A stretch of 58,453 bases of DNA, filler included, from Sphacelaria rigidula (GCA_964200075.2; 9 parts of 9 records of this genome joined end to end with filler, not necessarily neighbours in it); one strand, 5' to 3'; shown: positions 13,111 through 55,500, counted from the whole stretch's first letter. The notes: generated by a model not told the origin, from the letters alone. Numbers and translations: made by a program.

Positions 13111-14363
13111 GCGGTTTGTGGGGGGAGGGGGCAATAGTGATTGTTTGATAGTTTTCGATTGGTGGAATGATCTTCTTATGTCACGCTACAGATCGTGTGT
13201 CTCTCCGGCTATCTCGTGGTCCAGCGATAGTTTTACTCCTCCTTTACAAGTAGTGCCGATTGGGTTCTGGAAAGCACACAACACAAGATTAGTTCTGTTT
13301 TTCGCTTTTTCCGTAGTCTTCGCCACCTACCCACTCCACTTTGTGCTTGCCAAGATGGCTGCGCACGCTTGTGGAACGATGCGCTATTATTTGTACGACG
13401 TGCAACGTGAAAACAGCGTTGAAGGCTGTGCACTGTAGAGCGACGGCGCACCGCGTATTCTACTGCTGTATAGTTTGTACTGGTCTAGTAAGCTCTGATG
13501 AAAAGCTCTGCTCTTGGTTGTACAGCAGCGCTGTAGCACCATCAAGGATTGTGTGACATGCAGTGAGCTCAGTATCAAGGCAACGCTTGAGGTGCTCCAG
13601 CACTGCGAGATCTCCCGAGCCCGATTTCTCGAACCCGCGGTCACAGACGTGGACTCGCGTTTCCAGTACCCGTCAGTGCTATTTCTGACAGGAGATGGAG
13701 CCCATTGCTTCCTCCTGAGACGCCCAAAATGAAGCAGAATAACACAAAATAAGAGCAATAAGAGAGGGACGTCAGGAAAACTGTCGAGGAAAAGCCTCCC
13801 CCTGAGTTGGTCGGGGTGTGGTGAAACAAGCACATCAGGTTGTGCTAATAAAGCAAGCACAGGAATAATAAAAAGGAGAAAAGGAAGAAGAATGAATCAG
13901 AATGGAAACCACGCGAGAGCTGAACGACAGCCCCAGCTACCCGCACCGGAAAAAAATGCCCCAAGTTTTGAGGAAGACGGCAGGCACACTAGCTAGCGGT
14001 CTAATCGCTGCGTTTCGGTGGTGCCCGATAGTCGCAGAGGCATCTTTAGCGGTAACACATCAACCAATTCCTTGGTGACCCAGTAGAATATTTTTCCTTT
14101 GCTCCCCCTCCCAACTGGAAATGAAGTCGACTCTGATGCAGCAGCGACGAGGCAGTTTTGCGCTGCTGACACAAGAGGCAAGAGAGAGGATGTACGAGTA
14201 TCGCACCATGCGTCAGCAACCGCTGTACAGGGTGTGATGATTTTCCCCTCTCATCAAGTTGCTTTTTCTGGCCAAAAGCATGAATGCGGGCAGTAAGAAG
14301 TGACGTTGGTGTGAGTCGTACGTGGCTGGTTGCAACTCCGCTGCTCTGGGGGTTTGGAGTGTT

Positions 14364-18459: not shown

Positions 18460-19419
18460 GAGTGCCGTTTATCAAATGACGTATTCGATTTTTCGTCCTC
18501 GGGAAGAAAAAATGCTTTTACTACTACTACTGTTAATTGTTCTTGTAGCAGAGAGTGTCGGGGATGACTTTTTTTTGCAATCAGCATATAACTTCTGCCC
18601 GCGCATACGCATCAACTTTACGGTATCGAAAACTCCTTCTTTTGTCTTCACACAACACATCATCATCCCCAATGAAAGCTCCATCCTCAATTTTTTTATC
18701 GGCTGTCAACAATTTGACTCCAGTACCGATTTGCACTGAACAACACGAGTCACTGTGGAACATGACCATCCTCCCCCCGTTCCGTGCTGCCGCCTGATAA
18801 AATGTATGTCCGTACGCCAACGAGGAATGTAGTGTGAACCGGACCTGATGAACTAATAATAATAGGAATGATTTTTGCCGTCTCGATTTTCTCGGAAATC
18901 GCGGTGGCCAGCACAAATTGAAAACAGCCATGGTTTTCTTATCATGATTCAGTCTCAGCCCCCCCCCCCCCAAAAAAGGCAACTCAAATGCCAAGATGCC
19001 CGCACACAAGAATCATACGCACCTCATGTATCTTATTAAGGCGGTTTATTTAGTGCTGTATTTTCAGTACAAGTCAACCGTTCCTTTGCTTGTGGATTTC
19101 TCCGCCGTGAATTCTCCGCCGTGTCTGAACGAACCGGCCTGAAACTTGGCACAGAGGTAGACCACATCACATACATACAGCATATTCCCGGATCGGCAGC
19201 ACGTTTTACGTGCGAGTGGTGTGTCCGTCATCTCAGCGCGGTCTCCATGCCAAGGATCTCTGTACACAACAGCTTACCGCATCCGCCCACGCCTCGGCAA
19301 TAAACTAGGGGGTAGCAGACTACCCCCCCCGCCCCTTATTCCCCCCCGGGTTAGACACCCATGAGGCAGTGTAAAAGCTATGGCTGTCTCGGGAAGTGGC
19401 GATACCACGGAATGAAGCA

Positions 19420-21429: not shown

Positions 21430-21998
21430 TGGTGCGGCGAAAACCCGGCGTGCCCCGTCTCGGCTTAGTAAGGACGGACCCTATATGGGATTGGCATCGG
21501 TTGGCAATGATCCTGTAAAACGCGCTACTCAAATCTCAGCGTAAGCTAGGCAACCAGGTTACGGATTCTTTTTTGCGCGCTTGCTTTTTTTTGCGGTAAC
21601 GATGATGGTGATCGAGCTAGATCATACTGTACGGGCTTGGAAAACGTCATTCCCGCGCAAAAGGGACGATCATACCACGTAGTGTTTGGATGGTGAGACA
21701 CCCATGAGGCAATGTATAAGCCGCGAGCGGCTGTCGCTAGAAGTGGCGATCCTAGAAAATAAAGCAACTCATTGGAGGGTGTCATCCATATGAAGGAGAT
21801 TCAGTATGCTTCGGGCGGAATGAACGTAGCAGGATGTAGCTCGTCCTTCATGCAACTCGCCGGACGCACAACGGCGCTTGCGCGCTCGGTGATTGATTGC
21901 AAGCCTGGCCGGCCAAGAACCGGCGTGCTCCATCCGGGCTTTTGTAGGGATACGAGGTCAATGATGATGTGAGTATGGCATGCAAAGTCATGAGTATA
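21430..21998 (-). mobile_element. Full antisense copy of the G-tract-bounded repeat, in the intron upstream of the RanBP2-finger exon
   Basis: Colinear reverse-complement similarity to 46420-46960, including both direct-repeat copies; C-rich flanks on the + strand. Confidence 0.78.
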
Positions 21999-22085
21999 GC
22001 CCTCTCTCCACCCCCTTTCCCCCATCACCGCCCCACGTACCCTTGGGTTCCACCAACACAAACACACGTGTATCGTTTCCTGCAG

Positions 22086-30540: not shown

Positions 30541-30543
30541 TTA

Positions 30544-32431: not shown

Positions 32432-32531
32432 NNNNNNNNNNNNNNNNNNNNNNNNNNNNNNNNNNNNNNNNNNNNTTAATTAATTAANNNNNNNNNNNNN
32501 NNNNNNNNNNNNNNNNNNNNNNNNNNNNNNN
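32432..32531. other. Artificial contig spacer
   Basis: 44N-TTAATTAATTAA-44N. Confidence 0.98.
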
Positions 32532-32699
32532 GGATGCAGCTCACCCTTCATGCGACTCGCCGAACACACCACGGCGCTTTGCGCTTGGTGACTGAGTGCG
32601 AGCGTGGTCCGGCGAAAACCCGGCGTGGTCCGTCCCGGCTTTGTAGGGATGCGAGGTCGATAGCCTTATTATGACTATGGCATGCATGATCATGAGTAC
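32532..32699 (-). mobile_element. 5' part of the G-tract-bounded repeat, truncated by contig edge
   Basis: GGCGAAAACCCGGCGTG...TTGTAGGGATGCGAGG...CATGATCATGAGTAC followed by a C-run. Confidence 0.75.
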
Positions 32700-35608: not shown

Positions 35609-35861
35609 GAGTGATGCCACGATAGGGGTTGCACTTTTTGTTTCTGGGTCTCGTTTTTGTAGGAGCCCAAATATATGGGGCTTACTGTGCAACCCGAATC
35701 TCCGGGGACAGGTCATGGAGATGCACACAGGGGCCTTTTCATGAATCGGCATCATTTTCAGTCTTTTAAAAGTGAAAATGATGCCGATTCTCAAAATTAT
35801 CCGTGCAACACCCCGAGGAACATTTTCGCTCAAAAAGTGCAACCCTATCGTAGCATCACTC
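35609..35861. mobile_element. Sola-like MITE (GAG...CTC ends, ~30-bp TIR)
   Basis: TIR GAGTGATGCCACGATAGGGGTTGCACTTTTTG / CAAAAAGTGCAACCCTATCGTAGCATCACTC; flanks ACTA/ACCA (imperfect 4-bp TSD). Confidence 0.7.
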
Positions 35862-36870: not shown

Positions 36871-37269
36871 GAGTGATGCTACGGTAGGGTTGCACTTTTT
36901 GAGCGGAAAGGTTCCTCGGGGTGTTGCATGGATCATTTCAAGAATCGGCATCATCATTTTCACTTAACCCTTTGGGAACTAGACCCCCAGGGAGTGCTGA
37001 TTTTTGTTTTGGTGAATCGGCATCATTTTCAGTCATTTTCGAGTCAAAATGATGCCGATTCACAAAGATTCACAAAAGAAGAATCAGCACTTGAGTTCCC
37101 AAAGGGTTAAAAAACACTGAAAATGATGCCGATTCGCGAAAAGGCCCCCGTGTGCATCTCCATGTCCTGTCCGCGGAGATTTGGGTTGCACAGTAAGCCC
37201 CATATATTTGGGCTCCTACAAAAACGAGACCCAGAAACAAAAAGTGCAACCCCTATCGTAGCATTGCTC
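36871..37269. mobile_element. Second Sola-like MITE copy, opposite orientation, TGCG TSD
   Basis: Reverse complement of 35609-35861; TGCG at 36867-36870 and 37270-37273. Confidence 0.78.
36968..37106. mobile_element. piggyBac-like mini-element (139 bp) nested in the Sola-like MITE
   Basis: TTAA-CCCTTTGGGAACT ... AGTTCCCAAAGGG-TTAA; absent from the sister copy at 35609-35861. Confidence 0.85.
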
Positions 37270-38937: not shown

Positions 38938-39037
38938 NNNNNNNNNNNNNNNNNNNNNNNNNNNNNNNNNNNNNNNNNNNNTTAATTAATTAANNNNNNN
39001 NNNNNNNNNNNNNNNNNNNNNNNNNNNNNNNNNNNNN
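38938..39037. other. Artificial contig spacer
   Basis: 44N-TTAATTAATTAA-44N. Confidence 0.98.
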
Positions 39038-42000
39038 GAGCAGATGGGCACCTTCCCCTTGGTTAGACGATTAATACAATATGCGGATCACGGCCCAACT
39101 CGTCCGTGTCGACGAGATATTGCTTTGAGAGCTTGAATCCGTGTCTAGGCTGGCCCAGCTCGTACATCCTTTCAAAATGTAATCGAAAGCTACCAAAGAT
39201 TGAGCTCGGGAATCGCGTCATTCTCTCGAAATCGACTTGCTTTCTTCTACTCTCGGCTCAGAGGTCTTCACAAACTGCTCGTTGGTTCGCACACTACTAC
39301 CGGAGGCCTTGGCGCGCTGGGGGCCTCGTCTGCGTACATTCTTCGAAACTGCGCACGTAGTGCGACATGTGTTGCGGCACCACGCGGCACAACCGGCTGT
39401 AACCGATAATCAAATTTCAGCCGTTTTTTGGCTAATTCCGCCGCATATGGTACCCTCAACTCTTCACATTTCGGCACTTGGCTACAGTTTGGAATTTCGT
39501 TTGATGAAACCTTGTCGAATCGCAGTGCTACATGAATTTGAAGACACGCGCTGATTTACCGATTACCACGATGTGCCACAGTAGGCACAACTCGCGATAC
39601 ATCGTCAATTAGGACGGGCTGAAGGAAAGTGCACTTCTTAGGCGACCCAGCTTGTATTCTCTGCCGCTCGGCGCGATCCATCTTTTACTCGCATCGCCTG
39701 TGAACTACCTTTGGGTTAGTCTCGGTTGCGATATGGCGCGAGAATCCCGTTCATAGAACCCCCCACCCCGCGACCACTTCGAATCCGTCACCCTAAGCAC
39801 AGCGTGTATGGATGGGGAAAAGCGCACATTCGCAGTATGACATGTCTTCAGCAAGGTGAAGCGGAGAATGTCTGCACTTTTGGATAGATCCCTATATTCC
39901 ACGACCTTATTTTCTCTGCGTGGCACAGCTCACGCTGCTCCTTATAGTCAGCAAAAATATACTTCTGGAAGAATGTGTTTTTGGTCCTTCTTTATCATTT
40001 GACGCCCTAAAAGAGGGGTAGGCGGAGTTTTACACGTTGGAATGAGTTGTTCTACATGTAGAGGGGATTCCACGATACCGAAGCATCTTCCGGTGGCCGC
40101 AATTTTTATTCGGCTGAACAAGTTGTCTTGTCCAGAGACGGTCAAGTCCAGAAAAAAAAGTGGCGATTTTTTCTGAATTCGATTTTTCCTGATCATCCGT
40201 GAACAAAAATGCTTTGGCCAAAACCCAGGAAATGCCGCCACTGCTAAACGCGGAGACATCCTGAAACCGCCTCAAGGAGTAGAGCAAATCACTTCAACGT
40301 GGAGTAGAGCAAATAATCCCAACGTCTCAAACTCCGCCTACCTCTCTTTTAGGGCGTGACTTGATTTACGGTTAAAAAAATAACAAACAACTTTATTGTT
40401 GCTTGCTATAACGTACACTCTCTCGACATGTTGGCTGCCGACATTCACTGTTCCACAAGAAAACAGAAGGGTTTCACGGCTTGAGCGCTACTGGTGCGTG
40501 GGTACTCCCGAACTACATGACTGTTCCTGCATAGCTGTTAACGTTAGCGTCCGGGATCGCTGCCATCGACCAAATATGCAAAAGGATGATGGGTGGGGCT
40601 CTCAATATTCCCAGCAGACATGACTTTTGCTTCGGTATTTGCGTCGTATGGCCAGTATTCCCCCACGTCCCAGTACGCGAGAAAACCTGCGAAGCAACCC
40701 TAAACAGTTCAGGCGTCCACTACTGTAGAGTTGTCAATATGAAAGGTGAAACACACTGGTTTTCGAGGGAGTGCCGCAGCGAGGAAGGGATGCCACCTTT
40801 TCGACACAATATGGAGGGCGGCGGCTGACCACTAAATGTATCTTGTGAATGACAAGAAGGGGAGATCTCTGACCGGTGTAACAGCGCCATGTACTCTCTC
40901 TTCGGGTGATCGCTACCCTCTCCGGCGAGGTTCGTCGCAGGGCGTGTTCGTGATGAGAAACCTGGAGGCAAGTTGCGAACGCCAGTGGGTGAGGACGGTG
41001 CTATGAAGTTTCCAACAGTCGGGGTCGTTTACCGAAGCGTCCACCACAACAATGAGCAATGAGCGGCACGCAACAATACCCTATGACGGAACCCACCCAT
41101 ATAGTACAGTACAGGACAGTGATATGATGGACAGCAAAACACATGCCGTACAGGATACAAATGCACATGGCGATACCGAACAGTACAGTGCACGCCGCTT
41201 TACAGTTATGGGCGCGCCTGACCCCCCAAACTGGGTAAAGAAAGTGTCACCGACCAAAATCACGAAAATACAGGAACAGATCGACTTTTGGGGCTTATCT
41301 GGGCTCATCGGGTAAAATATGCCTAACGTCATCGGAAGAGAACGACATGGATCCAAAATTCATATAGAGAACCCTACCGTTACTTCCGTTGTTGTTCCAC
41401 ATATGTCACATACCACTGCGTAGCTTTTCGTCCATGCTTGCGATACGCTGGAATGCCAGGAGGCTAGTTGGGTTGATCCAACCCAACGCACACCGAGAAC
41501 CCTCGGGCAAGGGCGGTACATACACTCTCTGAACAAACTGAGACCTTGGTAGACCCCAAATCTGCGCCTGTGGCGCCGATGTCAACGAAAACCCGTTCTG
41601 CTCACACGAGGAGCCCACGGAACTGTCAGTGCTACTTGAAATCCGGTTCTTGTTGTACACATTCAAACCAAGTAATATCAACCATGAACATTTGTAGCCC
41701 AACGCCTGAAACGGGACCGCTGAACCATTGATTTTTGCAAAATCATATGCTCAATATGCGACGGAACCGTATGTACTGATGGACTACGACAAGGACGGCC
41801 CTTACACAGACGAGTGGAGTACAGTCGCCGGGTGTGTCATGTAGGCTGGGCGGATGTTGGTCGACGTCCTCGTCGTGTTCATCGTTCTACAATTTGAGCG
41901 GATGAATGATTCGCCCTGTGCAAGCGTAGTTATTGTTCCGTGGGTATGCCTTTTCATTTTATGAATGTGCATGATTTTCATCGGACTCCTAGGATATCGT

Positions 42001-42300
42001 GTTCCAAGAGGGAATGAAAACAAACCGCCGGTCGTCACCCACCACTGCCGATACATCGGACGCGTGTCTTATGACGGGTTGGTGCACTGAAAGACATGAG
42101 TGGGGCTTCGGTGCCATGTGGCTTCAGCAACAGTGGACTGACGACTTTATCCTGTCTTCTGTGTCGCCTTGACGCAGAATAGTTGACCATTCGGGAGGGT
42201 AAGTTGATCCATCTTGATTTTATTGTGAACCGAAATCCGGATCTTTTCATGGGAGGTGTGCTTCTAGCATGCTTTGTTGCTTTCTTTTCTCCTTCAGTTC
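39038..42300 (-). mobile_element. Highly degenerate Ty3/gypsy pol relic (protease-RT-RNase H-integrase order)
   Basis: Fragments DILG (~41990), VPWAP and PLP (~41610-41500), EKVASL..TP (~40800), AFLFTDD and LRYRG (~40210-40070), SHYVRSFEEC (~39360); many stops and frameshifts. Confidence 0.45.
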
Positions 42301-43092
42301 AGAGTTTGTCCACAGTTGCCGCCAGGTGAGATTAGATACAAAGCTACGCTATCGATGGTGGCGTGGTGATGGCACCGGGTGCAGGAGAACGAGCGCTACT
42401 CTCGCCACTATCACAAGCGATGCACAGATGGGGGTAAATATCCGCAGACACGGAAGCCTCTAGGGGTTCGGTCAAATGTTCAAATTCTACACCTGCCAAA
42501 CATTCCTCACATGCGATGTATCAACCATCTGCAGTATCAAGAGTCATTCATGGGTGTAATCTATTCTGAGGCCGTTGGGCAGGGGTGACGGTTTCGTATG
42601 TTGTGAAAACCGGCGAGGGTTGGAGGTGCTGGTTTGCGCCCGTAGCCCAAAACGGTTGCCCCCATTACTCATCGCCAAGGCGATCGATTGGGATGCGATT
42701 TTTTGTATCATCTGCGCGAAGGCGGCAGCTACAAATTCGGTGATCGTTTTTTTTATTCTTATCGGGATTCGAATTTTTAACGAATTAAATGGAAAAAAAA
42801 CATGTTTTTTTGCGATTTCCTCGATCACCATAACTCCTTTGGTTCCACAATCTTTCCAGATTGTAGCTTGGACAAATACACGCCGGTGAGTAGCCTAGGC
42901 ACGCCGTGGTTCGTAACCCGGGACAACGAAAATGGAAAATCATCGAGTGGAAACCCCACTCAAATCACAAGTACTTGGGGGGATTTTACGGCGTGCATAA
43001 TCAGGGAATAAACGAGATCTCCGGTCTGTTCGTGCTTTTGGTCGGTGACGCGTTTTGGGCTCATTTTGGGGGGTCAGGCGCGCCCATAACAG
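41203..43092. mobile_element. Inverted pair of ~85-bp termini, possibly Tc1/mariner-type
   Basis: TA-CAGTTATGGGCGCGCCTGACCCCCCAAA... and ...TTTTGGGGGGTCAGGCGCGCCCATAACAG-TA, both bordered by degenerate (CAGTA)n. Confidence 0.5.
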
Positions 43093-45443
43093 TATAGTAC
43101 AGCAAAGTAGAAAATAGTCAAGTGCCTTACAGAACAACAGAGGCGGTGCCGTACACTGTACTGGACGGTTTGCGACCGTTTGCAGTGCGCAACAGTCGAG
43201 TGGATTACAGTCGAGTACTGTACACGATACTGTTGAGCAGAACGGGACAGCGTGCTCCCCTGTTGTCATTACACACGACCCCGCACGTGATCGCGGACCC
43301 CCCTAATCAGTAGTGGACAGCACATTACGATACGCTCGAGTACATCAGACGACGGCACGCGGCTCCACATAAAAGTATGTTGTGTATTGCCGCCCTACAG
43401 TGCACCGCACCGGAACGTGCACGGCACTTTCCAGTACATGACGTTACACTACATGACACTCGAGCATAGACACAACAGCCCAGCCCAGCACGCAACAGTG
43501 ACCTGTGTGTTGCCATCCCATCACATACCGTACTGGACCGTGCACAACGCGTGCATTTTTTTGCGGTACAATATCATTCGAGTACAGTACACATCATGAC
43601 AGAGCGGTGCGGTGGGTCATCAACGTTTATACTGGAATATATATGCAGTTTGCAGCCCCCGTCTACCACCAGGCATGCTCGCAATCAATCGCCTCTTGTG
43701 TAGAGTCCCACACACCAATCGCGACGGGTTTTGTCAGATGGACTCTATGCGTCATAGGCTTCACCATGCACGCCGTGCGGCCTATCAACTCCTAGCGCGG
43801 CCATCACTAGTCTGCGTACCATCACGTGACATTCCGGCCACGAGGAACCTATACAGAGCGCCACCGTTCAGACCGGCCAACGCGAGACCTAACCACCTTG
43901 TCACCCAGAAACTGGCACCGACACCCCGCCTTGAACACAGCTTTCCACCGGTGCCGCGTCTTGGAGTTGTGCTCCTTCGTGAGGGCTGGCCACCCGAGTG
44001 AGCTGCGAGTACTTTGCGGCTGTGCTAGCTCAGTGTTATTCCTTTTCGATAATATGGAGGCGGTGTTTTGGCAACTTGGGCGTAAAAAGAATCCGCGCCT
44101 CGTATCAGATGACGCCGAAACTTGGAGAATGTGTAGATTGGTATTAGAAGAAGGTGTCACAGTCACAGCTGCGGCAGGGGAAGTCGCTCATGACTCGGTC
44201 TGCATCGATACGGTGGATAATCACCGCGCGCCGATTTTTGTCTTTCCAACACCCTGCTGTCTGATGATTACAGTGGGTACAGTGTCAGTTGACCACGCTG
44301 ACTGTGCATGGATGCTGCCGGCCTCATCATCAATATTCGCCGATTTATGGATTAACGCTCGAAGAAACCCAGCAAACAAGCATCGTTTATGATTTGCCAT
44401 ATATATGAGGGTTGGGAGGCGAACGTTTCCGCTCCAAAACGGTCGACAGTCGAAGGTTAAGCTCCTGTCGCGCGACCGGTGGGTAGCGCGACGTACCCTT
44501 GCCGGCGTACCTGGTACTGGAGGCGGCATCCCGGTACAGACAGTCCCACCACTGCCGTCACGGCCGTGCAAACAGGCTGGCAGCCGGCGTGGGCGTTGCT
44601 CTGGTATTCTTCTAGCCTTATCAACTTAGATTATCTCCGCAATGGCTTTGCACGTGAATATTTCGGTGATTGCCTCACTTCCACGTCGGCCATATTTTGG
44701 CGACAAGCCACGGTCTCACTGCCCAACTTTATATGTGAAAATGTACAACGATGGACGAGATATTTCTCTTCAGCTTTGAAAAAAGTGTACTGCGCACAGT
44801 ACTGAAATCTGTTGTCGACTGCCAAAGGCAGCACGGCGTCGAATGCGCGCAGTATACTGTGAGACGGTCCAGAAATCCCCACGCCGCGAAAGGTAACAGC
44901 AAGCTTTCGCGCCACAGCGCCTGTATCCACAGCGACCTTCGCCCAACATACGGGCATTGATTATAGGAGCGGATAGCAGCGGAGGCGGACTTCACTCACA
45001 ACATCGAGCACGTTGTACCGCTACAGGCCTCACTGCTGCGGATGGTGCGCAGTAAAACACAGGCGGTAAGCAGTATATGATGTGCTGTACTGACTGTACT
45101 GTTTCATATGCGTTCAGATCAGTGCGCACGGGGTGGGGCCCGCATGTACACAACCCTCCACGAACTTCGTGGTGTATTATCGTCGTGGCATGAGGTTTCA
45201 GCAGAAATCGCTTGCGATCTATGCTGTTACATAACTCGTAAGTGATGCAGCTTCCTCCACATACGCAATCCGTCCGTGAGGTGAGCTCTTGATGCTAGGA
45301 GCGCCCACTCCTCTTTCCGTGATGATGTCCAGTCTGGGGCTCAGACAATTGAAACCTCGGAATATGACAGTAACTGTAAGGAAGGCGTATCGCTAGAGTA
45401 GTCAGAGACCTACGGGGGGAGACTGCCGTCCTGATGCCGAAGG

Positions 45444-45543
45444 NNNNNNNNNNNNNNNNNNNNNNNNNNNNNNNNNNNNNNNNNNNNTTAATTAATTAAN
45501 NNNNNNNNNNNNNNNNNNNNNNNNNNNNNNNNNNNNNNNNNNN
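45444..45543. other. Artificial contig spacer
   Basis: 44N-TTAATTAATTAA-44N. Confidence 0.98.
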
Positions 45544-45600
45544 CCCCGTTCTCTCCACCCTGATGGCGACAGTCGGGCCATTACACCACCGGGGCGCGGC
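45544..45600 (-). mobile_element. Second tRNA-derived SINE head, truncated by contig edge
   Basis: Reverse complement GCCGCGCCCCGGTGGTGTAATGGCCCGACTGTCGCCATCAGGGTGGAGAGAACGGGG. Confidence 0.65.
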
Positions 45601-45939
45601 GGGCTGCACTAGAAACAAGAGATGAATTTTCTTTAAAACATGCAGATATGTAGGACCGCGCACTATCAGGAATATCAGCGTCCCCCTTGACTAGTCCTCT
45701 ACATACACGGATGTAGCCGGATTTGAGTGGCTGGAATCTCTGATCATGACGGCTCAGCTATCATCAGGGTCTTTCTCGCTGCCACGACCGTCGATTACTG
45801 TACGTGTTTTCTGTTTTCAGTGCAATGGCCAGCCCTAGCATCAGTACCATCAATCATCATTATCAACCGATCAGTTGTCATTATTTGCCGTCACCCCCAC
45901 AGTCACCATCCAATCATCATCCACACGATTACACACGAC

Positions 45940-46140
45940 CTTCAGGGGATCCTCTTCCTCCAGGACTCTGACCAGCTCCCCCGGATCATCAAGACCCAGC
46001 TTGAACAAACGCCGTAGAGAGCTCGAATGCCCAACGTCGCTCTCTCCGCCATAACTGTCAATTCCCTGCCATTTTTCCTTTCCCTGGGCAGCGTCGTCCG
46101 TCAATCCCGCCGCTTTCGGTATTTCCGCTACTACTGTCGA
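45940..46140 (-). CDS. Possible internal exon (201 bp, phase 0-0) of an unidentified gene
   Basis: Pyrimidine-rich tract and AAG acceptor, open frame STVVAEIPKAAGLTDDAAQGKEKWQG...LRRLFKLGLDDPGELVRVLEEEDPLK, GT donor at 45939-45938. Confidence 0.4.
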
Positions 46141-46419
46141 CTTGTGCATGCAAGGCAATGGCGATGCGCACGCGGGGCAGGGCGTCGAGGGGGGAGAGAA
46201 TGAAGGAGGACAGGGGGCATGGCCTAAATGTGAAATTTCGCACAATCTCGGAATAACAATTGTGGCGTATGCCACCCCGACCATCAAACTGGTGCCTCAT
46301 GGGTCAGTGTGGGCGGATCTTGTGGATTCCAATCCCGACATTGAGAGCGAAGTATTTAATACTGACACTTGATAATGAAAACGGGGGCAGGGGACGGTGG
46401 GGGAGGGGGGAGGGCGGGG

Positions 46420-46960
46420 TGTACTCATGATCTTGCGTGCGATAGTCATCTGATCATTAACCTCGCATCCCTACAAAGCCGGAACGGAGTACGCCGGGTT
46501 TTCGCCGGACCAGGCTCGCAATCGATCACCGAGCGCGAAGCGCCGTGATGTGCTCGGCGAGTCGCAGGAAGGGTGAGCCGCATCCTGCTAAGATTTTTCT
46601 GCCCGAAGTGTGCTGATTATTGTGCATTTGGATAGCAGCCTCCACTGAGCTGCTTCATTTTCTGGTATCGCCAGTTCTGCAGACAGCCACGGCTTATACA
46701 CTGCCTCATGGGCGTCTCACCATTTGAACGCTACGCAGTATGATCATCGATTTTGCGCGGAATCGAGGTCCTTCCAACCCGCACAATAAAATCTATCTCG
46801 ACCACCATCATGGTTACCGTAAACAATCGGTGATCTGGTTGCCTAACTTACGCAGTGAGTGGCCTGTTCTACAGCGTCATTGCCAACCGACGTCAACCCC
46901 ATAGGTGGTCCGTCCCTACAAAGCCCGGACGAAGCACGCCGGGTTTTCGCCGGACAAGGT
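46420..46960 (+). mobile_element. Unclassified ~540-bp dispersed repeat bounded by G-tracts (full copy)
   Basis: Starts GTACTCATGATC after a G-run; ~47-bp direct repeat at 46468-46514 and 46913-46959; followed by G-runs; homologous to 21430-21998 (-). Confidence 0.8.
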
Positions 46961-47695
46961 GGGGGGGGTTGGGGGGGGTACTAGATGCAACAGATGCAGA
47001 GTTCCGCGCAAGTCGATGTATCACGTCACGCGAGAAACAGCGAGTTGGGCCAGCCCAGAAACCCAACTGTAGGTTGTAGGCTACTTGGCAGCTCCGCTTT
47101 CAGGGCTGTGCTCTGAAATTTGGAATGTAATATCGCAAGGTCATGATCAAAAAAAATTGCGGATGAAAAACTGTGACGGCAAGAAATCGGGACTCTTGTT
47201 TTTTCGTGAGTGAATCACAGACAAGAAACAACATCCACGTGAAGGCGACATCGAAAAATTTGACATTATCACGACAGCTGCCGTACATCTTCATGCCCAG
47301 TGGAATTTCTGTTGTGACGTCATTATCGAAACCCCGGAGCCAAGCGAATAGAAGAAATGCGCTAGACTCTCCGTGAGGTGATGCAAAAAGTGGCCAAGAA
47401 ATGTGGTGGCGATGCTCCATGTTCGGGGGCCAAAAATAAATTACAAATGTCCCAAAACTGACAAACAAAAACAACTTTCATACGAGAAGGCCTGAAACAT
47501 TGCGATAAGTTTGCGCCCGATAATGTTTTTTTCACGCTACGCGTACATCCGGTGGACTTTGCAGATTAACACCGTATTTTGGGATCCGGCCCAGTGAAAC
47601 ATATACGAAGCGAGAACTATCACCATATACTACAGATAAACGAGATCAGATATCTGTGAGAAATTCCGCAAAACAATGTATTTAGGGGTAGGGTT

Positions 47696-47889
47696 CCAAG
47701 GGGGTGTTGGGTAGGGTATTTCCTTCATTCGGGTACTTTGAAAAATCGTACTCTAAGCACCCGAAATTCGGGTATAGCACTGAGATCGTACTCAACAACA
47801 CCCCGATGTTGGGTAGAGTAATGCGATCGCACCTAGCAAGAACGGGAGAGCAAAAACCCGGGTATATACCGTACCCAACACGCCCTTGT
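47696..47889. mobile_element. Small MITE-like element
   Basis: CAAGGGGGTGTTGGGTAGGGTAT / ATACCGTACCCAACACGCCCTTG. Confidence 0.55.
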
Positions 47890-49122
47890 GAGGTTCTCTC
47901 CCTTGGGATGAATCCGCATCAGTCCATTTCCCCCTCGGTACACGCCCCCCAGCAGCCCGTCGGCGTTCTTTAGTTCAACTTTCATCGCTACTCACATTTT
48001 GCCGTTTTCGAGGACAGGGATCATATAATTCTCAGAAAAAGCACCTAGGGCACCGTCTATGCACTGTTTATATATATATACAGAATATTTGGAACTCACG
48101 AGCGTCAAGCATACTTTGTAACGAGGCGTCCACGAGATTCAATGCTGATTTTAGTGTCCAAGTTCCTCCGCACCCGCCCCCGGAGATGACTGTTCGGGCC
48201 AACGCCAATGCTAGGGGTTCGGTTGGCAGATTCGTACTTTACTTTGTGCGGGGGTACACATGCGTTTGCGACCGTTCGAACGGACGCGCGATCGCGGTGG
48301 TCCTGGAATGCTTCCAGCGGGCATGAACATTTCGAGAGAGGATTTATTCTCACGAGGGCTTGGCAAGGCAAGAATACCGAGACCCTCGAAAAAGACGGAC
48401 GGGATCGGGGCGCAGCCCCGGGTCCCGTACGGCTTGTATATATATATATATATATATATAATTCATACGGGCATGGGACTGTATACGCTGAATGTGTAAG
48501 GGGTATTGCTAACGGGTCTACTTATTTTCCCGAAACCTTCGAACTTCACGAGAAAGGAAAAAAATGTTCCTTCGAACAAAATGAAAGCAGATTCCTCAAC
48601 CGTGTCAGGCAATAGATCGATATAAGACTGACGACGGATTTATCCAAAACTCAAGCGTCGGATTTGTTTTCAGTAAAATTGTTTTCGGAGAAGCAGGAAG
48701 AAGATGTAGATATCAGAAAAGGTTACGAAAAATCCGAAGAAAAAAACAGTTATGTTGATGAGACTCTTAATGTGTTTGTCACACGCCTACATACTTACTC
48801 TGGCCATTTTCCAGACGCGACATGTAACCCACCTTTGGAGGCGTAAAACACGAGAGAAAGTACAGCACCCAGGCAATCCCAAACATGACGGCCGCTATGC
48901 CCACAACCCCTCTGATCAGCGATGAGCCGCTCTGTTTTCGGCCCAGGCCCACCCCCTCAATCCCCAGTCCCCGAACACGCCCCTGTTAGTAATCATGAAA
49001 AAAAATAGAGAGAGGGAGAGAGCGGGAGATGAGGGGGGGGGGGGGGGGGAGGGGGTAGACAAAAAAGAGAAGAGATTTAAGGTGGGGGAAAAACGGTCGC
49101 AATGGGTTCATCACGGGTGCCA

Positions 49123-49231
49123 TCTCTGTCTGTCTCTGTCTGTCTCTGTCTGCCTCCGTCTCTGTCTCTATCTCTGTCTCTGTCTCTCTCCCTCTCTCTC
49201 TGTCTCTGTCTGTCTCTGTCTCTGTCTCTCT
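49123..49231 (+). repeat. (TCTCTG)n microsatellite
   Basis: Direct inspection. Confidence 0.88.
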
Positions 49232-50865
49232 ATCCGTCTGTCGCTCGCTCGCCCGTTCGCTCTGTTTCTCTGCATCACAACGAAAAAAATAAAGATAAAA
49301 GAAAGCTGTTGCAAAACAAAAACAAGGAAAACTGTTCCCGTGACTGCCCGTTGTTTGTGTAGCAGCAGAAGAAGCCATGAAACTCGTTCCGTCGCAAATC
49401 CAGCTTATTTCCCTTGGTCCTGTGCCGCTTTCGCGGTTGCTCCAGCCTGTGGCTGTTTCCCTTCGTCCTTTCACGGGATGTCCCGTAATACGTCGCGGAA
49501 GGTCCCGTCACCGGGACGGGAGTTGTTCCCGCCCAATCTCACGTGTAATTGAGGACATCTGAGGCGAATATATGCTTCATCTTTTGACGGGTGTGATGTA
49601 TGTATGTTTGTTACAATACTCGCCGGCACGTCAGATGTGGGACATGATATGTTCGCAGCAGGCCCGACGTTCTAAAAACGGTGCGCTTTGACTGTTTGGT
49701 ACTTCCATTTCTTCGAATGAGGTCTTCTCTTTGTCGCCGGAAAAAGAGCAGATCCCCACCACACTCTGCACAATGGACAACATTGGCGAAACGTGTACCA
49801 CGTACAGTTTCGAATGCATATAGAGTAGTAGACGAAATGCTCCATATTGTACGCGGTACAATTCTTGCCAATGTAATCTACTGTCCCTTGCCAAGCTGTG
49901 ATCTCCGCCCCGACAATTATCTTCATGGTTACCAACAATAGTTTTGGCTCACCTACTACATTTCACAAGTCATCCCCACGGTGTCCTGAGCAGCAACCTG
50001 ACCGTCCGATATCATTACGAGTATTTCCCCTCGGTAACAACGAAAATATCACATCCACCTACAGGGAAGCACTGTCGTAGTGCATGAAGTCTCGGGGCTG
50101 TGCGCGGGCTAAAACGAGGAAAAAACGCGCCGCTGTCTTTCGCGTGTCCTCATTTCCCAAGCTAAAACCAAAAAATTGCATTGCCCTCGAAAGACAGCTG
50201 GCAAAAATATCCAACAAAAAGCGAAAAAAAAACAAAAATCAAGAGAAGGCGTGCGCGGAAAGTCTTGAAAAAAATTGAAACATGACAAATACCGGGGGAA
50301 ATAGCGAAGGTTTTCCGCAGTCTATTTATATTTAGGAAGGCGCATACAACGACCGCCGGCACTTCTTTCGAACACTCCCTGTGTCAGATTCTTCCCCCGT
50401 CGGTGCAGCAGTGGTCAGACGAAATGGCTCACGACTCGTCATCTTCCACGATTTCACGTGCAAGATCGGAGAGTGTTAGTATCGCCACAAAGCCTGACTA
50501 GGGTTCTCTGCGTCGATGCTGCTCGATTATTGGTCCAGCTGTATCTGGATTTGAACACCGTAGTACCGGGTATCGATATAAACAGGACTCGTGGAGGACG
50601 AGCACGGTGTATCAAAGCAGAGGCAGGGCTTGGGACAGGAGATGGAGTGACAGATCGTGGGCGCTGGGCATCAACGCTCCGAGTGAGGAGCATGAGCATA
50701 GCCCGGACCGGGGATTGGAGGATGACAGTCCCAGGGTGCTGTCGAAACATTGCTGCGGTGATGGGGGCATATTATGCACAAGATAGAAAGGTGTTGCGTG
50801 GGTACTCTTGAAATGCGCGACCAGATAAAAGGAAAGGCCCTCTCGCCAGGCGAACATACAAAAAG

Positions 50866-51330
50866 CAGGGGTCTACACGTTCCACGTGCCACAACGTTAC
50901 ACGTTACGTTCACGTTACGTTTTGGCCGAAACGTAACGTGAACGCAACGTTAAATTTGCAAATGAAACGTTCACGTAACGTTATCTTTTTTAACGTGCCA
51001 AACGAAACGTAGGGTGAACGTTAACTCGTGCAAACGTTCAAAACACGTAATATGAAACGTTTAATGGAACGTGTAACATCTTTTACACGTTGCACGTGCA
51101 TTAGACGTGTCGCGTTACATGAAACATTTTATCTTACGTTCCACGTTTCATTAAGCGGTACACACTTCAGGTTTGCAATGAATTTTGAAATCCTAGAAGA
51201 AGGTGCTTCAATGAACCAGGGCTCTACACGTTACACGTGCCACAACGTTACACGTTACGTTTTGGCCGAAACGTAACGTGAGCGTTAATTCTTTTTCACG
51301 TGATCAACGTAACATAACGTGAACGTTAAT
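50866..51330. repeat. ACGT-rich subrepeat cluster with duplicated CAGGG-initiated end (possible hAT subterminal region)
   Basis: CAGGG.TCTACACGTT.CACGTGCCACAACGTTACACGTTACGTT at ~50866 and ~51217; dense AACGTT/TAACGT motifs. Confidence 0.65.
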
Positions 51331-51948
51331 ATCGGATGAACAAAACCATGAGTCTGTGTCAGTGAAACAAAAGCTTGTCAAGCTGGATAAATGCATCGAT
51401 TGCCTGGACCGCGGGGTAAACCTGTCATACATACACATATGCATGCATACGTACGTCTGTCTTTGACGGCCGTGATGAACTATTAATATCTTATTTGTTT
51501 ACGTATACAAATATATAGCTAAGGGTACCCGATATCGGTTTGTCTTGCGAAATGGCAGGACGACTCAGGCCGGCGCTCAATCATGTTCACGATTTGTTGT
51601 GTGTACAGCATGTGCTGTCGTGCGAATGACCAATCATCTAAAAATTGAAAATTGGAAAAAATATATATGAAAAAAAAAAAAGAGGAGATAATGAAAATGC
51701 TACGGTCAAAAACGAATGAACGATACACTGTAGCGAAAGTAAGGTTACACAAGCAATGCTATCGGTTCAACTGGCGGCCTACACATGTACTCAGGGGCTA
51801 TGTCCATTACTCGAGTACACGTTTGGTGGCCGGATTACTTCACTACAGAGTAAGTCATATTGGTACAAAATGCACATACTTTTGTCCGAAATTCAAGGGA
51901 GGGGGGGGAGAGATGGGTAGGGGGGGTGTACTCATGATCATGCATGCC

Positions 51949-52048
51949 NNNNNNNNNNNNNNNNNNNNNNNNNNNNNNNNNNNNNNNNNNNNTTAATTAA
52001 TTAANNNNNNNNNNNNNNNNNNNNNNNNNNNNNNNNNNNNNNNNNNNN
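51949..52048. other. Artificial contig spacer
   Basis: 44N-TTAATTAATTAA-44N. Confidence 0.98.
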
Positions 52049-52232
52049 GTTTCGAGATTGGCCGCTGAACAAAAATTCGTGCGCAAAAATCTGTGCTTGC
52101 CGACCCCCGCCAGTTTGCCCAAAGCCAAGACGTGTATTGGCGAGTTTCCCTGTTTGGGGGTCAATACGTGGGTCGAATGTCCCAAAGGTGAACAATCCGT
52201 GGGCCAAAAATGTGTGTGCCATAACATCCGGC
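52049..52232. mobile_element. Truncated copy of the 29932-30540 Tourist-like MITE family
   Basis: Shares TGCCGACCCCCGCCAGTTTG centre and GTGAACAATCCGTGGGCCAAAAAT...GCCATAACATCCGGCC terminus. Confidence 0.75.
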
Positions 52233-52549
52233 CTGATGGCGGTTACTACAAATTGGAGCAGGTCGGCACGGGTCATTGTAGAAATTGTCTTGGCAGTCCA
52301 CGTATTGTATTTCAGGGCACTTTGACGGGCGCTGATTCATCGATGTACATTTTCGCCATTAGTTCCACCCCTGTTGGTAACAAAACCCGACCTTGTCAAC
52401 TCCCCAGTTGTCCATGACGGTCGGTATGGTACCATGCAAGCAGCCATTGGGCAGGTAATGTGGGGGGCATCTTGAGGAAATTTTAAATTTTGGGTCGAAA
52501 GGGCGAACCAGCCTCTACCCTGGAGAACTTTGACATTGCATATTTGTGA

Positions 52550-55500
52550 TCATGATCGGTACAATGCCGGGCAAACATAAAAATATACCCTGTGCACAAC
52601 AGTAGAGTAGTAGTATACTGCACTACACATGCACAGCCCCCCGTCGCCGTTCGTCACTTGACCCTTCGACCGCGGTGCGGGTAGCCCATCTGGATCGTGC
52701 ATACTTTTTTCAAGCGGGTGTTCATGCCGATTGAGCAGGTGACCCATCTTCGGGTCGTTAGGGTCAACTGTATTTCAATATCCACTGTTGACTAACGGAG
52801 ATCGTACTAAACTATACAACCCTACCATTAAACTGAAGCGGGTTGCTGCGTGTCCCATTTCAACCCGTTTATTGAACGCAAGGCTGCCTTTCGAGACGAT
52901 GTCGTTGACCGATCCTCAACGTCGGCTAACCTCTTCGCTGAAGTTGAGCAACCTCGTCCTGTTCGCGAGCACGGCTGTCAGTGATAATATATTCTGCCGT
53001 GTACAACGGTCCCCAATTTATGACTTGTCGCGTAGAACTGTTTCTTGCAACCAATGTACTTGTGTGGTCCGCACCCTTCAGTAGGCCAGTGATCGATTGG
53101 CAGGAAATCATAAAGCGTTCTCATTTCATCCGATCTTCCAATTACTTTCGAGGTGAACATGATGCCGATTCATCGAAATGACTCGCCCTAGCAGGTGCGG
53201 GGTTCACATCATCCGCGCGAGGGCGGCCTTCGGAGAAAAACCCCGGCTTGAACACGCGTTCAATCTGGGCGCAACAGCTGAGGAGCTCCTATTTCCTAGA
53301 GTAGTCCTCGATGATAACAGATCGTGTACTTCATAGTCCCCAAGAACCGGTCACGTCATAGTAAACACTGAAACGTACGGTATGTCAGTGGTGCATATGG
53401 CCAACGCCCACGCCCAAGTGGCGAACAAGTACAGCCCCTGGTACGCTAACTCATCAGCAAAAAGCAGTAGTATGTCACCCACGGATAAAACTGGATGGCA
53501 GCAAGAACATGATGAAAAATCCTGTCAAGGATTGCCGAGCCCACCCTATTCATATGTTCATGGCTGAATGCCTCCTTCTCTTGACGCGAGGAAAGACGAA
53601 CAGCTGCCCTGACAAGGACACGCCCGAAGACGTGTGTGCCCTCCACAGGGTGTGGCATATTAGCATGTCATACATACCCTGTGGTTCCTCCAAAGATCCT
53701 CGGCGATTTTTTTCAACACCTGACCCGAAAACATCCGGCATCATTTAAATGTCAGAGGTGCCACTGCCGATGCCGAGGTTTATTATTATCGATGCCGAGG
53801 TAAGATCGCAAAATAATGCATGACGTGTTATTGTCTTCGGTTTCGTTGCAAAATCACGCGACAAAAATCGACCAGACCGTCCGCGGATCGTGTCAAGCCG
53901 TATGCTGTCGAGGACGATTGGCGACAACGGCACGTTCAAACATCAGGTTGGCAGAAATGAGATGGGGGCGGGTTTCCGCTCGTGAATACAGATATCCAGC
54001 CTTTGATGAATATGGCGAGGGAGTGTGGTGTCTCCACTAGACAGAAAATGAGGATGAACAGATGACAACGGAAGTGATCCAAGAGCGTCACCCTACAACT
54101 TATTTCTCTATCTCATACTGGCACCCTCCCCCGTTCAAGGCCTTTCTTTCCGGTATGATGGAGATCTGGCCGGAAACCGCTTCGATCGGCGATCGACTTG
54201 CGAGAGTTTGACGAGTTCCACAATACTTAGTACTGTTGTAATAGTACACATGCACAATGAGTCTGTTGTATCGTGAATGAAGAAACAAGCTGCCGTAGAA
54301 GGGGAAAAACAAGCACACTCTAGAATAGTGAGTACCAAACGAGAACAAGCGGACAATTCTGCCTTTCTTTCCGGTATGATGGAGATCTGGCCGGAAACCG
54401 CTTCGATCGGCGACCGACTTGCGAGAGTTTGACGAGTTTCACAATACTTAGTACTGTTGTAATAGTACACATGCACAATAAGTCTGTTGTATCGTGAATG
54501 CAGAAACAAGCTGCCGTAGAAGGGGAAAAACAAGCACACTCTAGAATAGTGAATACCAAACGAGAACAAGCGGACAATTCTCCACAGACAATGAGTACCA
54601 CAGGCAGTCTGGACAACAAGCGGACCGTTTTCCAAGCTGCTACAACGTACTGCCCAGGATCTCGTGTGTCGTACTGTATTGATACGTGACATAGAACTCT
54701 CATACCTGCGTTGCCAAAACAACGACGATCTTCCGTATAGTGCCGTCACGATTATATGAATAGTGAGTAGCCTTCTGCTCTTGAACGGGAAGTTTACCCT
54801 CCCAAGTCCGTCACTCGATTCGGCGTAACCGCCACGAGCAAGCCCGTTAAGCTTCGTCTATTTCGCGGAATATGATTGGGTGGTACATTGGATGAGACGT
54901 TCGTTCCCCGTCAGGGTCGGACATTTTTTGTTACTGTTCTTATCACCTATGGTGTGCGAACTGTTCTCTCGAACATGCAAAACGCTATCATGTACAGATA
55001 TAATACCACAAGCTCGTTTTTTTTTTCCAAAATATATCTCATAGCAAATAACTGGGACATGTACCGGGAATCTCGAGTCCAAGATACTTCTGGTAAGAGA
55101 CGACGCAACCAATTTCAAGGGTTAATAAACTCATGTTATACCCATCAAGAAGAAGAAAAGTCGATTGAATATGATATCTCCGCTGTGAACGCGAGTACAG
55201 ACAGATATAGCAATAAAACGACGAATGACCCTGCCGGCCGAAAAAAGGGGGTCACGTCTCGACCAGCCCGTAGGTGCGACCATATTCAAATCAGGCTCAA
55301 CCACGCTCAACCCCCTAACGAGGTTTAACCCAGGAACAGTGCTGGCCCAAACCTTCCGCAAACCTTTACCTAGCCTAGACATACTAAACATGTGCAAATG
55401 CTGCTTGAATGCCCCATGCTTTGTCGATGTGATCATGCCCCGCGATCGGGTGGATAGCTCTTGAGTGGCTTTCACTGACTGACTGTGTTCGTCCAACCGA

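What the first reader, a model, noticed from the sequence alone, without database searches (positions are those of the whole stretch)
46420..46960. Abundant non-coding element with an internal-plus-terminal direct repeat, ends abutting G-tracts
Seen: seven pieces on five of nine unrelated contigs (6537-6585 -, 13014-13110 +, 19352-19419 -, 21430-21998 -, 32532-32699 -, 46420-46960 +, 51927-51948 +). Both full copies have the layout A-B-body-B, with B a ~47-bp unit (TCCCTACAAAGCC.GGA.G.AG.ACGCCGGGTTTTCGCCGGAC.AGG). I see no TIRs, TG..CA LTR ends, Pol III boxes, poly-A tail or ORF. Every visible terminus abuts G-rich runs on the element's + strand. Inference: a high-copy non-autonomous element that targets or carries poly-G. 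The layout recalls split direct repeats of Ngaro-type tyrosine-recombinase elements or pseudo-LTRs of Penelope-like elements, but matches neither exactly; no canonical hammerhead core (CTGAnGA...GAAA) was seen. Several contig ends fall inside it, so it probably helps fragment the assembly.
Basis: partly seen in the sequence, partly recalled or inferred. Interest (0 to 1): 0.72.

Follow-up and report, generated by a model that had tools for sequence, protein, structure and literature searches.

The report
Poly-C-tailed retroposon family of a brown alga
The repeat is a real, very abundant, non-coding "copy-and-paste" element of the brown alga Sphacelaria rigidula that sits in runs of G/C, and it looks like the poly-C-tailed LINE-dependent elements catalogued in 2025 in Ectocarpus, so it is a new family of a known kind.

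Summary
The window is nine whole contigs of about 6.4 kb from the brown alga Sphacelaria rigidula. All seven listed pieces are real, and there is an eighth at 6604-6661. Both full copies (46420-46959 and 21430-21998) have the A-B-body-B layout. In 11 of 12 termini the 20 bases outside hold at least 12 G on the element's own strand, against 1.1% of random places.

Public contigs of four sequencing runs carry 32,000-52,000 matching pieces per run. That suggests roughly 10^4-10^5 copies.

The left end (GTACTCATG) is fixed and the right end varies, and each truncation is followed by a G run. Read on the other strand, this is a 5'-truncated retroposon with a (C)n 3' tail and C-rich flanks. The curated Ectocarpus library (Genome Biol 2025, supplement) records this anatomy for RTE-X LINEs and their non-autonomous RTEX-N1 (607 bp, the most abundant family) and RTEX-N2 (188 bp).

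My best reading (0.6) is an RTE-X-type non-autonomous retroposon. Homology to the Ectocarpus families and the partner LINE could not be tested. The Ngaro, hammerhead-bearing PLE/retrozyme, MITE, LTR and tRNA-SINE readings failed their tests. It is a new member of a known kind, of moderate interest.

The parts
46420..46959 (-). Full-length copy.
   Evidence: The unique flanks have single-copy depth. Logan contigs bridge both junctions with 0 mismatches (record 25, and records 8, 16, 24, 32).
46383..46419 (-). G-rich run next to the constant end. On the inferred sense strand it is the (C)n-like 3' tail or target.
   Evidence: In one search, loose ends before 46416 have a G-run consensus in 202-289 contigs per run.
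46960..46978 (-). G-rich run next to the B2 end. On the inferred sense strand it is the C-rich 5' flank.
21430..21998 (+). It is 74.8% identical to the first and has the same A-B-body-B layout.
21999..22035 (+). Degenerate purine/G-rich run next to the constant end of the 21430 copy.
   Evidence: 12 G in 20 nt.
32532..32698 (+). The G run 32699-32712 lies next to the constant end.
   Evidence: 83.7% identity over 190 nt.
13014..13114 (-). It is followed by the G run 13118-13131.
   Evidence: 85.1% identity.
19349..19419 (+). On the other side it is truncated at the equivalent of 46721 and then followed by a G-rich run (19323-19347).
6604..6661 (+).
6540..6585 (+). A G run at 6508-6523 lies at the contig start.
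51927..51948 (-). It is preceded by the G run 51897-51926.

Best explanation
The element is a non-autonomous non-LTR retroposon of the type catalogued in Ectocarpus as RTEX-N, that is, dependent on an RTE-X LINE.

On that strand it starts with the complement of B2. It ends with the complement of B1 plus A (...CATGAGTAC), followed by a (C)n tail.

Inferred steps:
1. A master copy is transcribed, and the transcript runs into the downstream C run.
2. The endonuclease/reverse transcriptase of a partner LINE nicks a (G)n.(C)n tract.
3. The G-strand 3' end pairs with the C tail and primes reverse transcription.
4. Synthesis often stops early, which gives 5'-truncated copies.
5. The new DNA is joined to the rest of the tract.

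Every copy, full or truncated, is therefore bracketed by homopolymer on the same strand, and no clean target duplication can be seen. New copies bring new tails. These are new targets, which gives head-to-tail clusters and many G/C tracts.

Shown here:
- the constant end and the variable end;
- same-strand G runs at both ends;
- head-to-tail joints;
- very high abundance;
- absence of coding capacity, TIRs, LTR ends and known RNA motifs.

Inferred only: the RNA intermediate, the sense strand, the LINE partner, and whether the tract is a pre-existing target or is brought in as a tail.
For: (1) Constant versus variable end in the window. All 6 visible 'left' ends start at the same motif directly after a G run. 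Three copies are truncated on the 'right' at different points (6604, about 6540, 19349), and each is followed by a G run. No copy is truncated on the left and preceded by a G run.

(2) The same pattern genome-wide.
- The best-supported loose end is a G-run consensus before 46416: 202, 289, 275 and 258 contigs in the four runs.
- All three 'goes back' joints shown in table 5 return to 46399-46416.
- Ten of the 12 shown letter-between-joint rows return to 46410-46419. They come from different upstream stop points: 46477, 46515, 46516 twice, 46677, 46712, 46717 twice, 46721 and 46953.
- Among the rows shown, G-rich loose ends 'behind' occur at internal stops (46723 and 46520 in X2). No internal 'before' end is G-rich.

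(3) Abundance. 32,081 to 51,880 contigs per run match at >=80%. Summed word depth at 46467-46497 is 1.7-3.2 x 10^5 times that of the unique flanks, and in the poorest bin about 400-600 times.

(4) Published precedent in a brown alga (PMC12477816).
- Main-text passages: RTEX-N1_Ec32 is a ~600-bp non-autonomous element. It is the most abundant family, with >6000 copies and 2.48 Mb, and its 3' end resembles autonomous RTE-X elements.
- Supplement MOESM3: RTEX-1a is noted '(C)n 3'' with TSD 'C-rich'. RTEX-2 is noted '(C)n termini/TSD'. RTEX-N1a (607 bp) is noted 'can be present in tandem' with TSD 'C-rich'. RTEX-N2 (188 bp) shares its 3' 100 bp with RTEX-N1.
- The pairing seen here matches that size and anatomy: a ~540-570-bp form, and a short A-B form of about 95 bp inferred from the joints at 46514-46516, both sharing one end.

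(5) No terminal inverted repeats, no tandem array, no ORF, no tRNA or Rfam motif.
Against: - No autonomous LINE was seen. None of the 168 frames >=90 aa or the 377 frames of 55-89 aa in the window hits a reverse transcriptase, endonuclease, recombinase or transposase domain. The whole genome is not held.
- Sequence similarity to RTEX-N1/N2 or to any RTE-X 3' end is untested, because the consensus FASTA files of the paper cannot be read here.
- The depth profile along the element is jagged, not a smooth rise toward the constant end. It peaks at 46467-46528 and 46684-46714 and has a trough at 46746-46776. This copy differs from the family majority at 40 or more listed positions, so alignability confounds the profile, but the profile does not by itself prove 5' truncation.
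- Only a few of the thousands of joints and loose ends were shown by the tool.
- The repeat of B at the far end is not a recorded feature of the Ectocarpus families.
- The 3' module has no significant fold (z from -1.3 to +0.8).
Confidence: 0.6

Rival explanations
1. It is a non-autonomous Penelope-like element of the Chlamys type. It would be mobilised by a GIY-YIG endonuclease/RT protein that prefers (C)n microsatellites. The repeated B unit would be a remnant of a pseudo-LTR, and A would be the short 'tail' extension seen at PLE ends.
For: Craig et al. 2021 (PMC8557442; passages and sections 9 and 10 read) report for Chlamys elements:
- targeted insertion at (C)n and (CA)n;
- frequent 5' truncation;
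- pseudo-LTRs;
- multicopy head-to-tail insertions;
- non-autonomous derivatives;
- no canonical hammerhead;
- 30-40-bp tails.
The metadata sheet lists '(C)n' for many Chlamydomonas-group families. Chlamys PLEs exist in a brown alga: 3 families and 4782 copies in Ectocarpus. Here we see (C)n flanks, head-to-tail joints and no hammerhead.
Against: The Ectocarpus Chlamys notes say '(A)n 3'; no pLTR' and give no C-rich target. The C-rich signature there belongs to RTE-X. A pseudo-LTR should repeat the element's true 3' end at its 5' end. Here only B is repeated, A is not, on either strand. No GIY-YIG or RT domain is in the window.
Confidence: 0.12
2. The element would be a SINE-like retroposon with a poly-G tail after B, and with extra G at its 5' end from cap or terminal-transferase addition.
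For: B closes both the short A-B form and the long form, as a shared 3' module would. G runs follow B2 in 2 of 3 full copies.
Against: Copies keep the A end and lose the B2 end: 3 truncated copies in the window, plus the joints. That is the opposite of what 3'-primed reverse transcription gives. B contains a T4 run that would stop Pol III, and no Pol III head was found. The published brown-algal precedent is (C)n on the sense strand.
Confidence: 0.07
3. It is a DNA-level element of a class without TIRs, moved as single-stranded DNA. Candidates are a non-autonomous Replitron or Helitron-like element, or an unknown class. Insertion beside G tracts would be orientation-specific.
For: Replitrons occur in brown algae, lack TIRs and usually lack target duplications, insert in one orientation, and carry short direct repeats at or near their termini (PMC10288648, passages read). 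Here there are no TIRs and there is a direct repeat.
Against: The direct repeat here is 47 bp and sits internal plus terminal, not at both termini. The ends do not fit the Helitron pattern of 5'-TC...CTRR-3' between A and T. Truncation at one end with a fresh homopolymer after each stop is not a described outcome of rolling-circle transposition. No Rep or helicase domain is in the window.
Confidence: 0.06
4. It is not a mobile element. It would be a satellite or segmental repeat, or an assembly or sequencing artefact in which poly-G comes from two-colour Illumina chemistry.
For: Two partial copies lie head to tail at 6540-6661. Some contigs show tandem joints. Contig ends and gaps cluster at G/C runs.
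Against: - Copies sit on five contigs with unrelated flanks.
- The 46420 copy lies in single-copy DNA.
- Both junctions, G runs included, are bridged without mismatch by independent Logan contigs in the runs laid: record 25 on one side, records 8, 16, 24 and 32 on the other. These runs may include the source sample.
- The runs are imperfect and of different composition at each copy.
- TRF finds no array over any copy.
Confidence: 0.03

Closest known systems
RTEX-N1_Ec32 and RTEX-N2_Ec32, non-autonomous partners of RTE-X LINEs in Ectocarpus sp. 7 (Genome Biol 2025, PMC12477816; main-text passages and supplement MOESM3 read)
   Same: - Brown-algal host.
- Non-coding.
- Sizes of about 600 bp and about 190 bp, sharing one terminal module.
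- 5' head of unknown origin.
- (C)n 3' end and 'C-rich' TSD on the sense strand.
- 'Can be present in tandem'.
- The most abundant family of its genome.
   Different: - Sequence relatedness is untested, because the consensus files are not readable here.
- Abundance here is one to two orders of magnitude higher: roughly 10^4-10^5 copies against about 6000.
- The 47-bp unit repeated at the far end is not mentioned for the Ectocarpus families.
- The Sphacelaria partner LINE has not been seen.
'Sower', the most abundant unclassified repeat of the 2010 Ectocarpus genome (1.2%, ~2.5 Mb; as summarised in PMC3145265, passage read)
   Same: It is an abundant unclassified brown-algal repeat. Its megabase figure equals that of RTEX-N1, so it is probably the same family (my inference).
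   Different: I saw no sequence or anatomy for it. The identity with RTEX-N1 is not stated in what I read.
Chlamys-type Penelope-like elements and their non-autonomous derivatives such as MRC1 (Craig et al. 2021, PMC8557442)
   Same: (C)n insertion bias that hides target duplications, 5' truncation, head-to-tail insertions, terminal direct repeats, no canonical hammerhead, and high copy numbers.
   Different: The pseudo-LTR logic does not fit, because only B is repeated. The brown-algal Chlamys notes record (A)n and no pLTR. No GIY-YIG/RT partner was found.
Ngaro (DIRS-like) retrotransposons
   Same: Direct repeats that are partly internal.
   Different: The Ngaro layout is A-int-BAB with RT/RNase H and tyrosine recombinase genes and 0-bp TSD. 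Here A occurs once, nothing is coding, one end is variably truncated, and the flanks are homopolymer.

Membership tests
RTE-X-dependent non-autonomous retroposon (RTEX-N type) | (C)n 3' end and C-rich flanks/TSD on the sense strand | tested here: met
   11 of 12 termini have >=12 G of 20 on the complementary strand. The runs next to the constant end are about 14-37 nt. This holds if the sense strand is as inferred.
RTE-X-dependent non-autonomous retroposon (RTEX-N type) | Constant 3' end with variable 5' truncation | tested here: met
   6 of 6 visible constant ends, and 3 copies truncated at different points. The joints and loose ends agree, but only the best-supported rows were shown.
RTE-X-dependent non-autonomous retroposon (RTEX-N type) | 3'-terminal sequence shared with an autonomous RTE-X LINE of the same genome | not testable with these tools
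   No genome is held. No RT or EN domain was found in 545 window frames.
RTE-X-dependent non-autonomous retroposon (RTEX-N type) | Sequence homology to RTEX-N1/N2_Ec32 | not testable with these tools
   The consensus FASTA (MOESM1/2) cannot be read here.
SINE in the strict sense | Pol III head derived from tRNA, 7SL or 5S | tested here: not met
   ARAGORN found 0 genes. Rfam gave no hit at gathering and none of these families at E<=10.
Chlamys-type PLE derivative | Pseudo-LTR: the element's 3' terminal part repeated at its 5' end by partial tandem insertion | tested here: inconclusive
   B is repeated and A is not. Head-to-tail joints do exist.
Chlamys-type PLE derivative | Partner encoding an N-terminal GIY-YIG endonuclease plus RT | not testable with these tools
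   None is in the window, and no genome is held.
Canonical PLE / retrozyme | Hammerhead ribozyme in the repeat | tested here: not met
   cmscan of 46300-47100 at E<=10 returned only two lncRNA models. The whole window at gathering returned 0.
Ngaro/DIRS | A-int-BAB split direct repeats and a tyrosine recombinase | tested here: not met
   A is single and B is double. No ORF lies in the element. No recombinase domain is in the window.
MITE / TIR DNA transposon | Terminal inverted repeats and a fixed-length target duplication | tested here: not met
   0 inverted pairs in 46360-47010, and only short internal ones in the second copy.
Solo LTR | TG...CA ends, both ends constant, 4-6-bp target duplication | tested here: not met
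   The element ends in ...CCAGG or ...CAAGG, one end is variable, and the flanks are homopolymer.
Helitron | 5'-TC ... CTRR-3', a 3' hairpin, and insertion between A and T | tested here: not met
   The termini and flanks read do not fit. The folds are not better than shuffles.
Satellite DNA | Long head-to-tail arrays of one unit | tested here: not met
   TRF finds no array over any copy, and copies have unrelated flanks. Arrays elsewhere in the genome cannot be excluded.

The most novel reading that the evidence does not exclude
One poly-C-tailed LINE/non-autonomous partnership has done two things in Sphacelaria. It has amplified to the order of 10^5 copies, several per cent of the genome. By re-targeting its own tails it has also seeded the genome with G/C homopolymer tracts, about one per 1.3 kb in this window. 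These tracts are G-quadruplex-prone and break short-read assemblies. Most G/C tracts of this genome would then be retroposition scars rather than ordinary microsatellites. The repeated 47-bp B unit would be the functional head and recognition module that let this family outrun its Ectocarpus counterparts.
Probability: 0.3. Interest if true: 0.55.

Novelty: new member of a known kind. Interest (0 to 1): 0.35.

Why it matters
- It gives a mechanism-based name to what is probably the most abundant repeat of a poorly assembled brown-algal genome. It also explains why that assembly shatters at G/C runs.
- It suggests that the unusual (C)n-tailed RTE-X system noted in Ectocarpus is older than the Ectocarpales, and that it can expand ten- to fifty-fold. 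That bears on genome-size differences among brown algae. The Ectocarpus paper says TE landscapes of other brown algae have not been analysed in detail.
- In practice, a consensus of this family would improve repeat masking and gene prediction for Sphacelariales.

Tried and rejected
- Whole-genome search: no genome is held.
- Earlier-findings look-ups by place, sequence and words gave nothing relevant.
- Collection scans with two short window motifs:
  - metagenome contigs gave 2 loci, and BLAST showed both to be chance 20-27-nt matches in 58-61% GC contigs;
  - viral contigs gave 0;
  - prokaryote genome contigs gave 0.
- Sequencing runs: no RNA holder is listed, so nothing can be said on expression.
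- A protein search with a 51-aa frame of the element found 3 unnamed ENA peptides (63-73 bits) and nothing longer or named.
- RNA folding of the terminal modules on both strands was no better than shuffles, z -1.3 to +0.8. No covariation test was worth making on six B copies.
- Pfam scan of all 545 stop-to-stop frames >=55 aa found no transposon protein.
- Papers:
  - the Phaeoexplorer preprint has no passage on this repeat, poly-G or SINEs;
  - the 3D-genome/centromere preprint does not mention Sphacelaria;
  - word searches for poly-G/G-tract with Ectocarpus, and for poly-C/poly-G tails with retrotransposons, listed nothing relevant;
  - one search was badly framed and its listing was uninformative.
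- Poly-G as a two-colour sequencing artefact was rejected. The runs are imperfect, lie inside contigs, and are reproduced in the Logan contigs of the runs laid.
- A target duplication beyond the G runs: none is visible at the 46420 or 21430 copies.
- B1 is bracketed by the hexamer CTCGCA in 3 of 3 copies. I considered a 47-bp insertion with a 6-bp duplication, or a template switch, and could not decide between them.

Full report
**What the window is**

The 58,453 bases are nine pieces of 6405-6407 bp joined by N44-TTAATTAATTAA-N44 spacers, with three internal 10-N gaps. An ORF at 10645-11610 carries a Rubisco-LSMT substrate-binding domain. Over the aligned part it is 100% identical to an NCBI protein labelled Sphacelaria rigidula whose longest contig is 6406 bp. 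The next best named hits are other brown algae at 73-82%. The pieces are therefore whole, length-sorted contigs of a fragmented brown-algal assembly, and the contig ends are real. No whole genome is held for this window.

**The observation**

- They also recover one more piece, at 6602/6604-6661.
- Two copies are full length: 46420-46959 and 21430-21998, 74.8% identical.
- The other pieces are cut by contig ends or are truncated.
- Both full copies read A (about 47 bp), B1 (47 bp), body (about 400 bp), B2.
- B1 is bracketed by the hexamer CTCGCA in 3 of 3 copies that hold it. I cannot explain this.
- Nothing coding is shared by the copies.
- There are no terminal inverted repeats, no tandem array, no tRNA-like part and no Rfam family, hammerheads included.

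**G tracts**

- The window has 22 pure G or C runs of >=10 nt, where 0.08 are expected from composition. A or T runs of that length number 5.
- By an 80%-purity rule there are 45 G/C-rich runs, about one per 1.3 kb.
- Even against that rich background the association with the element is extreme. In 11 of 12 termini the 20 nt outside hold >=12 G on the element's own strand, against 1.1% of random positions.
- Four of 18 contig ends lie inside copies, and five more lie in or within 30 nt of a G/C run.
- One of the three internal gaps directly abuts a long G/C run (the 77-nt run after 57173-57182). A second (23421-23430) has only a 6-nt run beside it and a long C run 26 nt away.

**Abundance and genome-wide ends**

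Logan contigs of four public runs, from two studies, were laid on 46250-47150 at >=80% likeness.

- The flanks have single-copy depth: 11, 27, 68 and 40.
- The element attracts 32,081 to 51,880 contigs per run.
- Summed word depth is 1.7-3.2 x 10^5 times the flank depth at 46467-46497, and about 400-600 times in the poorest bin (46746-46776).
- The tool warns that such sums are not copy numbers. I take them only as an order of magnitude, 10^4-10^5 copies.
- This copy differs from the family majority at 40 or more listed positions, so it is old and aligns unevenly.
- Contigs bridge both junctions of this copy, G runs included, without mismatch (record 25, and records 8, 16, 24, 32). These runs may include the source sample.
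- The strongest loose end is a G-run consensus just before the left end, in 202-289 contigs per run.
- All three 'goes back' joints shown, and 10 of the 12 shown rows of letters between joints, lead from various internal stop points back to 46399-46419. That is a truncated copy, a few G, then a fresh left end.

**Orientation and mechanism**

- In the window, all six visible left ends begin at the same motif right after a G run.
- Three copies stop early on the right at different places, and each is followed by a G run.
- No copy shows the reverse pattern.
- One constant end and one ragged end is the signature of target-primed reverse transcription, with the constant end being the 3' end of the RNA.
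The element ends in ...CATGAGTAC followed by (C)n, and both full and 5'-truncated copies lie in C-rich flanks.
- The short A-B form of about 95 bp, implied by the joints at 46514-46516, and the long form share this 3' module.

**Comparison with what is known**

- A curated TE library of Ectocarpus (PMC12477816; passages; supplement table) lists RTE-X LINEs with '(C)n 3'', '(C)n termini/TSD' and 'C-rich' target duplications.
- It also lists their non-autonomous partners. RTEX-N1 is 607 bp, has a head of unknown origin, 'can be present in tandem', and is the most abundant family of that genome at 2.48 Mb. RTEX-N2 is 188 bp and shares the 3' 100 bp.
- These details are in the supplement only. The main text does not mention the C-rich signature.
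- The older name 'Sower' for the most abundant Ectocarpus repeat (~2.5 Mb; PMC3145265) probably refers to the same family. That is my inference.
- The Sphacelaria element has the same anatomy, so I file it as working like, and probably being, an RTE-X-type non-autonomous retroposon.
- Membership is not proven. The partner LINE and the sequence relation to the Ectocarpus families could not be tested, because no genome is held and the consensus FASTA files are unreadable here.
- None of the 545 window frames >=55 aa hits any transposon protein.

**Rivals**

- Chlamys-type Penelope-like elements also prefer (C)n, truncate at the 5' end, insert head to tail and lack hammerheads (PMC8557442). They exist in Ectocarpus. 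However, the Ectocarpus notes give them (A)n ends and no pseudo-LTR, and the repeat of B without A does not fit a pseudo-LTR.
- Rolling-circle or Replitron-like elements (PMC10288648) share only the lack of TIRs.
- A satellite or an artefact is contradicted by unique flanks and bridged junctions.
- Ngaro, MITE, solo-LTR, Helitron and strict SINE membership each fail a defining feature that was tested.

**Verdict**

The element is ordinary in kind but unusual in scale. It is a new, very abundant family of the poly-C-tailed LINE-dependent retroposons so far catalogued in print, as far as my searches reached, only in a supplement table for Ectocarpus.

The open questions are:
- whether the G/C tracts pre-exist or are made by the elements;
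- what the repeated B unit does.

Noticed in passing
whole window; e.g. 12816-12883, 57183-57259, 1903-1943, 23347-23395: G/C homopolymers are far over-represented. There are 22 pure runs >=10 nt against 0.08 expected, and 11 runs >=15 nt. A/T runs >=10 nt number only 5. Most runs are not next to the studied element, so other families or processes also make or use them.
   Followed up: partly
window 1773-1841 and 1944-2068 (contig 1): A second, unrelated short repeat. Two adjacent copies in the same orientation each start right after a G run (1748-1772, 1903-1943). The second copy is closed by another G run (2069-2091). They are roughly 70% alike over about 68 nt in the alignment. This may be another family moved by the same machinery.
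   Followed up: partly
window 22067-22215 and 23133-23280 (+ strand): A duplicated exon-like segment, 83.6% identical. It encodes a C-x2-C-x10-C-x2-C motif followed by a glycine-rich stretch. From recall this is the pattern of RanBP2-type zinc fingers, but Pfam gave no hit at E<=0.001. C runs and a 10-N gap lie just downstream, so part of the duplication may be an assembly effect. The 21430 copy of the element lies directly upstream.
   Followed up: partly
window 33400-35010, also 1-330 and 36139-36322: Three tandem units of about 510-570 bp, 72-88% identical, containing CTG/CAG runs and long open frames of no known family. Related pieces lie at the start of contig 1 and 2.7 kb downstream.
   Followed up: no
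window 35608-35767 / 37111-37270; 29931-30058 / 30414-30541 (related: 52125-52234); 19933-20336 / 20513-20918: Three pairs of long inverted repeats: 160 nt at 94%, 128 nt at 96%, and about 410 nt at 79%. They look like terminal inverted repeats or foldback elements of DNA transposons. One has a relative on another contig.
   Followed up: no
window 54140-54581: A perfect-register tandem duplication of a 221-bp unit, 98% identical.
   Followed up: no
window 10155-11610 (+ strand): Exons of a SET-domain-associated gene with a Rubisco LSMT substrate-binding domain. Its closest named relatives are in other brown algae. This gene is what identified the organism.
   Followed up: partly
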